DNA of 64,000 nucleotides, taken from positions 64,001 to 128,000 of IMG/VR virus record IMGVR_UViG_3300042887_005324; one strand, given 5' to 3'. Under the pieces are notes generated by a model. That model had not been told where the DNA came from. It worked only from the letters and a program-made list of their open reading frames with translations, and made no database searches. The position numbers and the translations under genes are program-made. Source of the DNA: a virus. Positions 37,967 to 38,851 of this stretch are shown here, piece by piece; the first letter of the stretch is position 1, and every line of letters starts with the position of its first letter.

Positions 37967-38512
37967 ATGGAAAGAGAAATTTTAGAAAATTACTTAAATG
38001 GTGGATTATCAACAAATGATATTGTTAAGATAACGAATAAGTCACAAACAACCATAGTTTATTGGATGAAAAAACATGGATTAAAATCAAATTTTATTAA
38101 CTTCAAAGATCAAGGAGTAAAAGACTACGGTGAATATAGATTTTGCCCAAGATGTAAAAAGGAATGTAAAACATCAGATTTTTATAACAGAAGAGGAAAG
38201 GCCAATAGTTCAGTTTACTGTAAGAGCTGCACAAGTGACCAAACATTAGAAAGAATGAGGGCATTAAAGTTACAAATGGTTGAGTATAAAGGCGGTTCTT
38301 GTGTAAAATGTGGATATAATAGATACTTAGGTGCTTTAGAATTTCACCATCTTAATCCAGATGAAAAAGACTTTAACCCATCTCAACTAAAAAGATACAA
38401 ATTTGATGATAATGTAAAGTCAGAACTGGATAAATGTATATTAGTATGTTCAAACTGTCATAGAGAAACACACGATGAAATTAATAGAAATAAAAAAGAG
38501 ACTCAAGATTGA
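37967..38512 (+). mobile_element. free-standing HNH homing endonuclease
   Basis: CxxC motifs plus CVKCG..LEFHHLNP..ELDKCILVCSNCHRETH; N-terminal HTH-like segment. Confidence 0.85.
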
Positions 38513-38521
38513 GTCTCTTTT
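38494..38521. terminator. bidirectional terminator between HNH gene and tRNA-Arg
   Basis: AAAAGAGACTCAA-GA-TTGAGTCTCTTTT. Confidence 0.75.
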
Positions 38522-38522
38522 G

Positions 38523-38802
38523 TGATTCCGGATGGATTCGAACCATCGACCCACAGCTTAGACATACCACTATAGCTTTCGCTACCTAATGTTTGTGGTC
38601 TGGACTATATCATCACCTTCAACCTAGTTGTTCAGGTGCTTCCCCCTTAGTCTCTACACACTCCCTCATTTCTGAGGTTTGGCTCGGTATTACCATCAAC
38701 ATTACTTGGAAGGTTTCACCGAATTCGAGAAGTTCTATCTAACTATTTCTAATTAAACGCCCCCTTTGAGGCTGTTGCTCTATCCAACTGAGCTACGGAA
38801 CC
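38523..38802 (-). tRNA. tRNA-Arg(UCU) interrupted by a group I intron (exons 38769-38802 and 38523-38562)
   Basis: Joined exons give GGTTCCGTAGCTCAGTTGGATAGAGCA-ACAGC-CT[TCT]AA-GCTGT-GGGTC-GATGGTTCGAATCCATC-CGGAATCA. Confidence 0.92.
38563..38768 (-). ncRNA. group I self-splicing intron (206 nt, no ORF)
   Basis: 5' exon ends in U and intron ends in G; P AATTCGGTGAAA, Q AATACCGAGCC, R GTAGAGACTA, S GATATAGTCC; GGGGC guide pairs with exon GCCU. Confidence 0.9.
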
Positions 38803-38819: not shown

Positions 38820-38851
38820 CAAATATAATTTAAAGTTTTTAATTTTCCAAA
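38820..38851 (-). promoter_or_regulatory. Bacteroidota-type promoter for tRNA-Arg
   Basis: TTTG-N20-TATATTTG. Confidence 0.65.

What the first reader, a model, noticed from the sequence alone, without database searches (positions are those of the whole stretch)
38523..38802. Group I intron in a phage tRNA-Arg(UCU), inserted after U33
Seen: a 206-nt ORF-less intron with P/Q/R/S core, terminal G and a guide sequence pairing with exon GCCU. It splits the anticodon loop as CU^UCUAA. Known: bacterial tRNA group I introns occur in Leu(UAA), fMet, Ile(CAU) and Arg(CCU); classical phage group I introns sit in protein genes. A phage tRNA intron is rare. AGA is visibly the dominant Arg codon in these ORFs, so supply of this tRNA would depend on splicing. 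The precursor also lacks an intact anticodon loop for host anticodon nucleases to cut (inference).
Basis: partly seen in the sequence, partly recalled or inferred. Interest (0 to 1): 0.7.

Follow-up and report, generated by a model that had tools for sequence, protein, structure and literature searches.

The report
Self-splicing intron in phage arginine tRNA
A large lake phage keeps its only arginine tRNA gene (for AGA, its main arginine codon) split by a genuine 206-base group I intron that travels with a neighbouring DNA-cutting enzyme gene. It is a real, well-supported new member of a known intron family, not a new kind of element.

Summary
On the minus strand, 38802-38523 is a tRNA-Arg(UCU) gene split between U33 and U34 by a 206-nt ORF-less intron (38768-38563). 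The intron scores 69 bits against RF00028 (cut-off 50).

- **Guide sequence.** It pairs with seven consecutive bases of the joined exons (GCCU|UCU). U-1 forms a U.G pair and the intron ends in G.
- **Relatives.** Eight other IMG/VR contigs carry the same split gene (six further lineages). Compensatory changes support the tRNA acceptor, anticodon and T stems and P2, P3, P4, P5a, P6a, P7, P8 and P9a.
- **Uninterrupted alleles.** Genes with the identical 23-nt site occur in at least 118 viral contigs.
- **Known family.** After U33 is the classical tRNA-fMet site. What is new is the host gene (Arg-UCU), the phage setting, and a phage-specific clade sharing one P9 domain across Leu, Arg, Asn and Ser tRNAs.
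- **Literature.** A 2014 review says all phage introns known then lie in protein genes. Yet the motif is common in viral contigs and sits unannotated in Agrobacterium phage Atu_ph07.
- **HNH cassette.** The abutting HNH gene plus the split tRNA form a roughly 0.88-kb cassette shared between otherwise unrelated loci, which suggests trans homing (inferred).
- **Anticodon nucleases.** That idea has no support.

Splicing itself was not shown here. This scan has already found the same Arg(UCU) 33/34 intron on other DNA.

The parts
38820..38851 (-). Promoter-like site, TTTG-N20-TATATTTG (Bacteroidota -33/-7 type; also reads as a sigma-70-like TTGGAA-17-TATATT). It ends 17 nt before the tRNA 5' end.
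   Evidence: The motif occurs 12 times in the window against 4.2 expected. Function is inferred.
38769..38802 (-). tRNA-Arg(UCU) exon 1: acceptor 5' strand, D arm (G18 G19 A20), anticodon stem 5' strand, C32 and U33.
   Evidence: The acceptor stem covaries and the D stem is invariant in 8 distinct relatives.
38563..38768 (-). Group I intron, 206 nt, no ORF, ending in G at 38563.
   Evidence: RF00028 69 bits; ARAGORN -i; covariation.
38759..38765 (-). Internal guide sequence AGG|GGGC. It forms P10 with exon 2 UCU and P1 with exon 1 GCCU (U33.G wobble).
   Evidence: Read from the sequence. The U.G pair is kept in 8 of 8 relatives.
38740..38755 (-). P2 hairpin with a GAAA tetraloop.
   Evidence: All 6 pairs show changes on both sides. 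The loop is GNRA in all relatives.
38658..38732 (-). P3 5' strand (38732-38727), then the P4-P5-P5a-P6-P6a domain.
   Evidence: Rfam alignment. P3, P4, P5a and P6a covary.
38639..38654 (-). P7 5' strand with a bulged A (38654-38648; the R element GUAGAGACUAA), J7/3, and P3 3' strand (38644-38639). P3 and P7 form the core pseudoknot.
   Evidence: P7 is 100% paired, with one covarying pair.
38602..38638 (-). P8 hairpin (38638-38614), J8/7, and P7 3' strand (38607-38602; the S element AUAUAGUCC).
38566..38599 (-). P9 and P9a with an invariant GAAA tetraloop. This domain is shared by phage tRNA introns whatever the tRNA.
   Evidence: The domain is 76-98% identical among phage tRNA introns and about 45% identical to bacterial ones.
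38523..38562 (-). tRNA-Arg(UCU) exon 2: U34 C35 U36 A37 A38, anticodon stem 3' strand, variable loop, T arm, acceptor 3' strand and discriminator A. No CCA is encoded.
38494..38521 (-). Intrinsic terminator hairpin, 12 bp plus a T run, starting 2 nt after the tRNA. It overlaps the last codons of the convergent HNH gene.
37967..38512 (+). Free-standing HNH endonuclease gene (181 aa), convergent with the tRNA. Its stop codon lies 11 bp from the tRNA 3' end.
   Evidence: phrog_2255, E 2e-36. Homologues abut the split tRNA-Arg in L004, L094, L132 and L127, and the intron-less tRNA-Arg in L133.

Best explanation
The phage transcribes a roughly 300-nt precursor from its own promoter to an intrinsic terminator. 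In it, a compact ORF-less group I intron of the bacterial tRNA (IC3-like) type sits between U33 and U34 of tRNA-Arg(UCU). The intron's guide sequence AGG|GGGC holds exon 1 (GCCU, with a U33.G wobble) in P1 and exon 2 (UCU) in P10. Free guanosine would attack after U33, and the freed U33 3'-OH would then attack after the terminal G. That joins the exons into an ordinary 74-nt tRNA-Arg(UCU) reading AGA, the phage's main Arg codon. The intron is a selfish passenger rather than a device of the phage. Together with the abutting free-standing HNH endonuclease gene it forms a cassette of about 0.88 kb that has moved between otherwise unrelated phage loci. Most likely the nuclease cuts rival tRNA-Arg regions, and repair copies in the cassette (trans or collaborative homing). 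What is shown: intron identity, the exact borders, the conserved fold, the existence of uninterrupted alleles, and the shared cassette. What is inferred: splicing activity in vivo, promoter use, the HNH target, and any immunity the intron gives against it.
For: - **Identity and borders.** RF00028 gives 69 bits against a cut-off of 50. ARAGORN -i returns the same borders, and the joined exons form a canonical tRNA-Arg.
- **Fold conservation.** Across 9 Arg pre-tRNAs from 7 lineages, 96% of cells pair. 34 pairs show double changes against 17.2 in shuffles, and slid controls give about 40%. The U.G pair at the 5' splice site, the terminal G, the L9 GAAA loop and the guide are invariant.
- **Uninterrupted alleles.** Genes with the identical 23-nt site occur in at least 118 viral contigs. 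The best matches are 92% identical to the joined exons. L315 equals the exons of the L126 group apart from a 1-nt indel in the D loop.
- **Cassette.** Against L004, L132 and L127, only window 38844-37967 is shared within 10 kb of flanks. The close relative L133 shares both flanks and the HNH gene but has another, intron-less tRNA-Arg.
- **HNH proximity.** HNH genes of three families lie within 150 bp in 5 of 7 intron-bearing lineages. Background at intron-less alleles is roughly 10-20% or less.
- **Transcription signals and codon use.** AGA usage is 82.5%.
Against: - No RNA evidence was obtained. A scan of metagenome contigs for the full-length intron circle junction found nothing. The four hits to the joined-exon body are other intron-less genes.
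- The HNH link is not obligate. L133 has the HNH without the intron, and L126 and L129 have the intron without an HNH.
- The intron-bearing lineages are few and related, so the enrichment is only suggestive.
- The HNH family also sits beside other tRNA genes, so tRNA clusters may simply be nuclease hot spots.
Confidence: 0.8

Rival explanations
1. The intron and the HNH gene are two independent selfish elements that merely share a recombination hot spot, the conserved tRNA gene. The intron spreads by reverse splicing or plain recombination, and the HNH has another target.
For: Each occurs without the other: L133 has the HNH only, and L126 and L129 have the intron only. The HNH family lies beside tRNA-Lys, Ile/Phe and Asn/Ala genes in other phages. 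Homing-endonuclease and HNH families also turn up beside intron-less alleles. The same P9 domain is found in introns of Leu, Arg, Asn and Ser tRNAs with different guide sequences, as expected if the intron retargets itself through its guide.
Against: tRNA, intron and HNH are the only shared segment between the window and three otherwise unrelated loci. HNH genes of three families abut 5 of 7 intron-bearing lineages.
Confidence: 0.4
2. The intron serves the phage. It either hides the anticodon loop from host anticodon nucleases or times the supply of tRNA-Arg through GTP-dependent splicing.
For: This is the only tRNA-Arg gene in the held record, and AGA makes up 82.5% of Arg codons. The unspliced precursor does lack an intact loop (sequence).
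Against: The spliced tRNA has a standard CUUCUAA loop and would be cut like any other. Most phages with the same tRNA allele have no intron (at least 118 against 9 contigs). The closest relative manages without it. The record is only 68% complete, and the host also supplies tRNA-Arg.
Confidence: 0.08
3. The intron is a decayed relic and the tRNA a pseudogene.
For: No splicing data were obtained here.
Against: All core helices are intact and kept by compensatory changes across 7 lineages. The U.G pair, the terminal G, the guide, the bulged-A P7 and the GAAA loops are invariant. The tRNA stems also covary. The model match is full length.
Confidence: 0.05
4. The stretch is bacterial DNA (a host tRNA gene) wrongly filed as viral.
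For: Neighbouring genes look cellular: GreA, MetK, CysK-like and YqeY. One viral Leu intron (L114) nests among Burkholderia introns.
Against: The record has a Gp23-family capsid gene, and the tRNA lies mid-record at 102.5 of 174 kb. The Arg-type junction pattern has 0 hits in one genome each of 185,579 prokaryote species. There is no Arg(tct) among 120 bacterial core-motif hits. Relatives lie in viral contigs of up to 321 kb with tRNA arrays.
Confidence: 0.03

Closest known systems
Bacterial tRNA-fMet group I intron (class fMet.2Ug / Met.2Ug; Williams 2020, bioRxiv 10.1101/2020.01.27.920355)
   Same: Same insertion site, after U33 (loop position 2), with U-1 and a terminal G. It belongs to the same family of small tRNA anticodon-loop introns filed as subgroup IC3.
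   Different: The host tRNA is initiator or elongator Met in bacteria. Some members carry an endonuclease ORF. Here the host is Arg(UCU), the genome is a phage, and there is no ORF.
Bacterial Arg.3Ug and Arg.5Ug introns (Arg.5Ug is the classical tRNA-Arg(CCU) intron)
   Same: They are arginine tRNAs split by the same intron family. Arg.3Ug, in the seed alignment of Williams 2020, has the P1 strand CUUC, which I read as Arg(UCU) cut one base further on.
   Different: The site differs: after U34 or after position 36 rather than after U33. No Arg.2Ug is in that seed. My bacterial sample gave 9 Arg(cct) and no Arg(tct).
Azoarcus pre-tRNA-Ile(CAU) intron
   Same: By my recollection of that 205-nt RNA, it has the same size and plan: P1-P9 with no P5abc or P2.1, GAAA loops in L2 and L9, and a bulged A in P7. 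The shared core words AAUUCGGYGAAACC and CCGAGCCAA also hit Rhodocyclaceae tRNA(CAU) introns.
   Different: The site is after position 36. The P9 domain is unrelated (about 45% identity). P5 lacks the CCUAAG/UAUGG receptor.
Cyanobacterial/plastid and phage tRNA-Leu(UAA) introns (Leu.3Ug)
   Same: These are the nearest relatives by sequence. The P9 domain is 76-84% identical to the window's intron for the Leu introns of Atu_ph07 and LR756501. The core of the second Arg group is 86% identical to the LR756501 Leu intron.
   Different: The site is after U34, and the guide sequence differs.
Collaborative or trans homing: the cyanophage psbA intron with its free-standing endonuclease, and T4 mobE with the nrdB intron (PMC3984707; PMC2790892). 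Also T4 SegB in the tRNA region.
   Same: An ORF-less intron sits next to a free-standing endonuclease gene, and the two move together as one segment. As with SegB, the nuclease sits in a phage tRNA region.
   Different: No cleavage site is known here. The host gene is a tRNA rather than a protein gene. The pairing is not obligate.
Introns of Lak megaphage tRNAs (bioRxiv 10.1101/356790) and of jumbo phages (PMC13037316)
   Same: These are phage tRNA genes with introns, noted as conserved and common in large phages.
   Different: Those papers give no intron type ('enigmatic'), and some are said to encode a tRNA. Here the intron is a clear group I ribozyme.

Membership tests
Group I intron (Rfam RF00028) | Covariance-model score above the curated cut-off over the whole model | tested here: met
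   69 bits against 50, model positions 1-253.
Group I intron (Rfam RF00028) | P3-P7 pseudoknotted core with P4-P6 and P8, kept by covariation | tested here: met
   Across 77 pairs, 96% of cells pair. 34 pairs show double changes against 17.2 in shuffles (0 of 500 shuffles reach this), and slid controls give 37-44%.
Group I intron (Rfam RF00028) | U at -1 in a U.G wobble in P1, a guide sequence pairing with both exons, and G as the last intron base | tested here: met
   The U.G pair is kept in 8 of 8 relatives. The guide AGG|GGGC faces GCCU|UCU, and the terminal G is invariant.
Group I intron (Rfam RF00028) | Guanosine-dependent self-splicing | not testable with these tools
   This needs an in vitro or in vivo RNA assay. 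The scan for the circle junction found nothing.
Subgroup IC3 tRNA anticodon-loop introns | Lies in a tRNA anticodon loop at a site that leaves a normal 7-nt loop after splicing | tested here: met
   The loop is CU|UCUAA. The site equals class '2Ug'.
Subgroup IC3 tRNA anticodon-loop introns | Compact plan: P1-P9 only, no P2.1 or P5abc, with GNRA loops in L2 and L9 | tested here: met
   206 nt. L2 is GAAA (GUAA in L096) and L9 GAAA is invariant. The list of features is from my own knowledge.
Subgroup IC3 tRNA anticodon-loop introns | Sequence kinship with accepted members | tested here: met
   The core words are shared with bacterial Leu(UAA), CAU, Arg(CCU) and Ser introns. The core is 63-70% identical to them, and it clusters with tRNA introns in the tree.
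Subgroup IC3 tRNA anticodon-loop introns | Formal subgroup assignment by a subgroup-specific model (GISSD, or gpI_bact_tRNA of Williams 2020) | not testable with these tools
   Rfam holds one model only. The published model could not be run here.
Collaborative / trans homing pair (ORF-less intron plus free-standing endonuclease) | A free-standing endonuclease gene beside an ORF-less intron, inherited together | tested here: met
   The HNH lies 11 bp from the tRNA. Only the roughly 0.88-kb unit is shared with L004, L132 and L127.
Collaborative / trans homing pair (ORF-less intron plus free-standing endonuclease) | The endonuclease cuts the intron-less allele at or near the insertion site, and the intron-bearing allele is immune | not testable with these tools
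   This needs a cleavage assay. One indirect pointer exists: the only HNH-bearing relative without the intron has a divergent tRNA-Arg around the site.
Collaborative / trans homing pair (ORF-less intron plus free-standing endonuclease) | Consistent association of the two across genomes | tested here: inconclusive
   5 of 7 intron-bearing lineages have an HNH within 150 bp, against roughly 10-20% or less at intron-less alleles. But the lineages are few and related, and both elements occur alone.

The most novel reading that the evidence does not exclude
Large phages carry their own clade of group I introns, marked by a shared P9 domain, that has hopped between tRNA genes (Leu-UAA, Arg-UCU, Asn-GUU, Ser-UGA) by changing its guide sequence. 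In tRNA-Arg it works as the immunity half of a two-part homing system. The neighbouring HNH nuclease destroys uninterrupted tRNA-Arg genes of rival phages, while the intron keeps the carrier's own gene uncuttable yet functional. That would be the first collaborative-homing pair in a tRNA gene and a weapon in phage-phage competition.
Probability: 0.3. Interest if true: 0.65.

Novelty: new member of a known kind. Interest (0 to 1): 0.45.

Why it matters
Three things follow.

- **Correction to the reviews.** It contradicts the review statement that phage group I introns lie only in protein genes. It also gives a type (group I, tRNA class) to at least part of the 'enigmatic' tRNA introns reported in huge phages.
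- **Annotation.** Standard tRNA finders and Rfam at default settings both miss the gene. Phage tRNA sets, and arguments built on them about codon-usage matching or missing suppressor tRNAs, are therefore undercounted. The cultured phage Atu_ph07 has such an unannotated tRNA-Leu, which could serve as a test system.
- **A model for mobility.** The compact cassette of tRNA, intron and HNH gives a simple natural system for studying how ORF-less introns spread with free-standing nucleases.

The instance itself is an ordinary, well-behaved member of the family.

Tried and rejected
- **Whole-window detectors.** Rfam at gathering threshold and plain ARAGORN found nothing at the site. Only the local Rfam search and ARAGORN with introns allowed found it.
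- **Mis-designed pattern.** One junction pattern used N{1,8} where the window has no spacer. Its six bacterial hits are chance matches in GC-rich protein genes, and its viral scan returned only L096.
- **Kin search failures.** The upstream 139-aa ORF gave no relatives.
- **Chance match.** L131, one of the ten junction hits, is a chance match in a coding region.
- **ARAGORN mis-splits.** Its 'Tyr(ata)', 'Gln(ttg)' and some other labels are wrong. Those inspected are Leu(UAA) or CAU tRNAs, so the tallies by tRNA type are approximate.
- **No RNA evidence.** The full-length circle junction gave 0 hits in metagenome contigs. The joined-exon body gave only other intron-less genes.
- **GenBank hits outside tRNA genes.** The hit in Pelagibacter phage HTVC120P is a capsid-gene intron, and the one in crAss-like cr111_1 is a helicase-gene intron with a GIY-YIG ORF.
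- **Literature.** Eight searches found no paper naming a group I intron in a phage tRNA gene. That is not proof that none exists.
- **Tree limits.** The tree is a FastTree of a short alignment without support values. I use it only for coarse grouping.

Full report
**What is there**

Reading the minus strand of 38802-38523 gives GGUUCCG..AGCCU, then 206 nt, then UCUAAGCUGU..CGGAAUCA. Joined, the two outer pieces form a textbook 74-nt tRNA-Arg(UCU):
- a 7-bp acceptor stem
- a D arm with G18 G19 A20
- the anticodon stem ACAGC/GCUGU and loop CUUCUAA
- a T arm GAUGG-UUCGAAU-CCAUC
- a discriminator A

ARAGORN calls the in-silico spliced sequence tRNA-Arg(tct). With introns allowed, it finds the same gene in the genomic sequence with a 206-nt intron.

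The intron matches Rfam's group I model over its whole length at 69 bits (cut-off 50, E 1.6e-17). It is the only such match in the 174-kb record. Plain ARAGORN and the whole-window Rfam scan at gathering settings missed both the gene and the intron. Routine annotation would therefore show neither.

**Borders and fold**

Only one split satisfies three conditions at once: a 7-nt loop, U before the 5' splice site, and G as the last intron base. That split is U33|U34.

Intron bases 4-10 (AGG GGGC) are complementary to seven consecutive bases of the joined exons (GCCU UCU). This gives P1 (4 bp, with U33.G7) and P10 (3 bp).

I laid out the following helices by hand from the Rfam alignment:
- P2, with a GAAA loop
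- P3
- P4, P5, P5a, P6 and P6a
- P7, with a bulged A
- P8
- P9 and P9a, with a GAAA loop

I then tested this layout on an alignment of nine intron-bearing tRNA-Arg genes:
- 96% of cells pair, against 84.5% in shuffles.
- 34 pairs show changes on both sides, against 17.2 in shuffles. None of 500 shuffles reaches this.
- Sliding the partners by 1-3 columns drops pairing to 37-44%.
- The helices with compensatory changes are P2, P3, P4, P5a, P6a, P7, P8, P9a and the tRNA's acceptor, anticodon and T stems.
- The U.G pair, the guide, the L9 GAAA loop and the terminal G never vary.

Both the ribozyme and the tRNA are therefore under selection. A dead relic is unlikely.

**Is it a phage?**

The record is an IMG/VR virus record, estimated 68% complete, with a Gp23-family major capsid gene. 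The neighbours look cellular (GreA, MetK, a PALP enzyme, YqeY), which is usual for very large phages.

The Arg-type 5' junction plus P4 pattern has no match in one genome each of 185,579 prokaryote species. Among 120 bacterial hits to the shared core motif there is no Arg(tct).

**Relatives and uninterrupted alleles**

- The exact 3' junction occurs in ten IMG/VR contigs, of which one is a chance match. The real ones are 17 to 321 kb long, several with tRNA arrays. All nine are called tRNA-Arg(tct) with introns of 197-209 nt.
- The uninterrupted 23-nt site AGAGCAAC(A/T)GCCU|UCUAAGC(A/T)GU occurs in at least 118 viral contigs.
- The best uninterrupted matches are 92% identical to the joined exons. 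L315 equals the exons of the L126 group apart from a 1-nt indel in the D loop. The predicted spliced product thus exists as a normal gene in other phages, and the intron-bearing form is the minority.
- The window's closest relative, L133, has a GreA 78% identical and synteny on both sides at 72-80% nucleotide identity. At the same place it carries a different, intron-less tRNA-Arg(UCU). Homology breaks exactly over the tRNA's 5' part.

**How common are such introns in phages?**

One core motif (AAUUCGGYGAAACC..CCGAGCCAA) hits at least 119 viral contigs. ARAGORN places 54 of them in tRNA genes. Most are Leu(UAA), with others in Arg(UCU), CAU tRNAs, Ser(UGA) and Asn(GUU). Several of ARAGORN's labels are mis-splits that I corrected by eye.

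In GenBank, the cultured jumbo phage Atu_ph07 and the 735-kb LR756501 each carry an unannotated tRNA-Leu(UAA) with such an intron.

The phage tRNA introns share a P9 domain (CCAGACCACAAAC..GGUAGYGAAARCUAUAGUGGUAUG). It is 76-98% identical whatever the tRNA, but only about 45% identical to bacterial tRNA introns. The Arg introns fall into two groups. The core of the second group (L126, L128, L130) is 86% identical to a phage Leu intron, against 71% to the window's intron. This looks like one phage clade that has moved between tRNA genes by changing its guide sequence.

**What the literature says**

- A 2014 review states that all phage introns seen so far lie in protein genes, despite many phage tRNA genes (PMC3984707).
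- The Lak megaphage preprint reports tRNA introns as previously unreported in phages and 'enigmatic'. A 2026 jumbo-phage survey notes them without naming a type.
- For bacteria, Williams 2020 extends the four classical classes to 21. The classical fMet.2Ug uses this same site, after U33. The seed alignment there holds Arg.3Ug and Arg.5Ug but no Arg.2Ug.

The site is therefore classical and the family is known. The host gene and the phage setting are new to the papers I could search.

**The neighbour**

ORF 37967-38512 on the plus strand is an HNH endonuclease gene (phrog_2255, E 2e-36). It converges on the tRNA, stops 11 bp from it, and shares the terminator hairpin.

- **Homologues.** Proteins 58-61% identical abut the split tRNA-Arg in L004, L094, L132 and L127. 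One 80% identical abuts the intron-less tRNA-Arg of L133.
- **Shared segment.** Across 10 kb, the only segment the window shares with L004, L132 or L127 is 38844-37967. That is the tRNA, the intron and the HNH gene, about 0.88 kb.
- **Other HNH families.** L096 has an HNH of another family 82 bp downstream. L004 has a second one about 120 bp upstream. L128 and L130 have an HNH remnant 38 bp upstream. L126 and L129 have none nearby.
- **Background.** That makes 5 of 7 intron-bearing lineages with an HNH within 150 bp. Beside uninterrupted alleles, tblastn finds 3 of 118 within 1 kb. A PHROG scan of 113 flanking ORFs at 66 loci shows a few homing-endonuclease or HNH families with 2-4 members each.
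- **Other tRNA genes.** The window's HNH family also sits beside other tRNA genes in other phages.

I read this as a mobile cassette driven by the nuclease (trans or collaborative homing, as described in PMC3984707). The data do not exclude two independent elements sharing a hot spot.

**Function for the phage**

AGA makes up 82.5% of Arg codons, and this is the only tRNA-Arg gene in the held record. The tRNA is therefore plausibly useful, and its supply from this gene does depend on splicing.

A Bacteroidota-type promoter motif ends 17 nt upstream, and a strong terminator follows the gene. It looks like its own transcription unit.

Nothing supports the idea that the intron protects against anticodon nucleases. 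The spliced tRNA has a normal loop, most carriers of this allele lack the intron, and the nearest relative does without it.

**What I could not show**

Splicing itself remains untested here. A scan of metagenome contigs for the full-length circle junction found nothing. The four hits to the joined-exon body are other intron-less genes with different acceptor stems and flanks.

Earlier notes of this scan report the same Arg(UCU) 33/34 intron on other DNA, including a claim of RNA evidence for a 209-nt relative. I could not reproduce that evidence and do not lean on it.

**Verdict**

The finding is real and precisely described. It is a new member of a known family, at a classical site, in a new host gene and genome type. 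It comes with a suggestive nuclease partnership. Interest is moderate.

Noticed in passing
L123 (MF403008.1, Agrobacterium phage Atu_ph07, about 112.7-113.1 kb) and L124 (LR756501.1, about 190.2-190.5 kb): Both GenBank phages carry a tRNA-Leu(UAA) split after U34 by a group I intron (278 and 205 nt). It is not annotated as a tRNA in the Atu_ph07 record (only a 'hypothetical protein' CDS lies over it), and the LR756501 record has no annotation at all.
   Followed up: partly
L263:2501-2995, L264:2501-2722, L265:755-994: Homologues of the window's HNH protein sit inside tRNA clusters of other phages, next to tRNA-Lys, between tRNA-Ile and tRNA-Phe, and between tRNA-Asn and tRNA-Ala. This looks like a tRNA-region homing endonuclease family, comparable with T4 SegB.
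   Followed up: partly
window, 12 sites, e.g. 38851-38820(-), 36522-36492(-), 34507-34476(-), 41196-41166(-): The Bacteroidota-type promoter motif TTTG-N18-22-TAnnTTTG occurs 12 times against 4.2 expected. Several copies lie just upstream of genes, including tRNA-Cys and tRNA-Arg. This hints at a Bacteroidota host.
   Followed up: partly
L126, L128, L130, L129 versus window, L004, L127, L096: The Arg(UCU) introns form two groups. They share the guide and the P9 domain but have different cores. The core of the first group named is closer to phage Leu(UAA) introns (86%) than to the window's group (71%), so either the introns are mosaic or the same site was invaded twice.
   Followed up: partly
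L059 (viral) and L155, L214, L248, L252 (bacterial, mostly Patescibacteria-type MAGs): ARAGORN places the tRNA-Asn(GUU) introns after G34. The same sequences can be read as inserted after U33 with a terminal G, the same site as here. Williams 2020 names an Asn.4Ug class, so more than one Asn site may exist.
   Followed up: no
L096:4718-5106(-): A viral contig with an intron-bearing tRNA-Arg also encodes a tmRNA (RF00023, 73 bits) and at least five other tRNAs.
   Followed up: no
L133:8251-8322: At the orthologous position the closest relative has a quite different tRNA-Arg(UCU), with anticodon stem UAACU/AGUUA and another D arm. The tRNA gene has been swapped while both flanks stayed.
   Followed up: partly
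L114 (IMGVR_UViG_2609460129_000003): This 'viral' tRNA-Leu(UAA) intron nests among Burkholderia introns in the tree. It is probably host DNA at a prophage edge rather than a phage gene.
   Followed up: no
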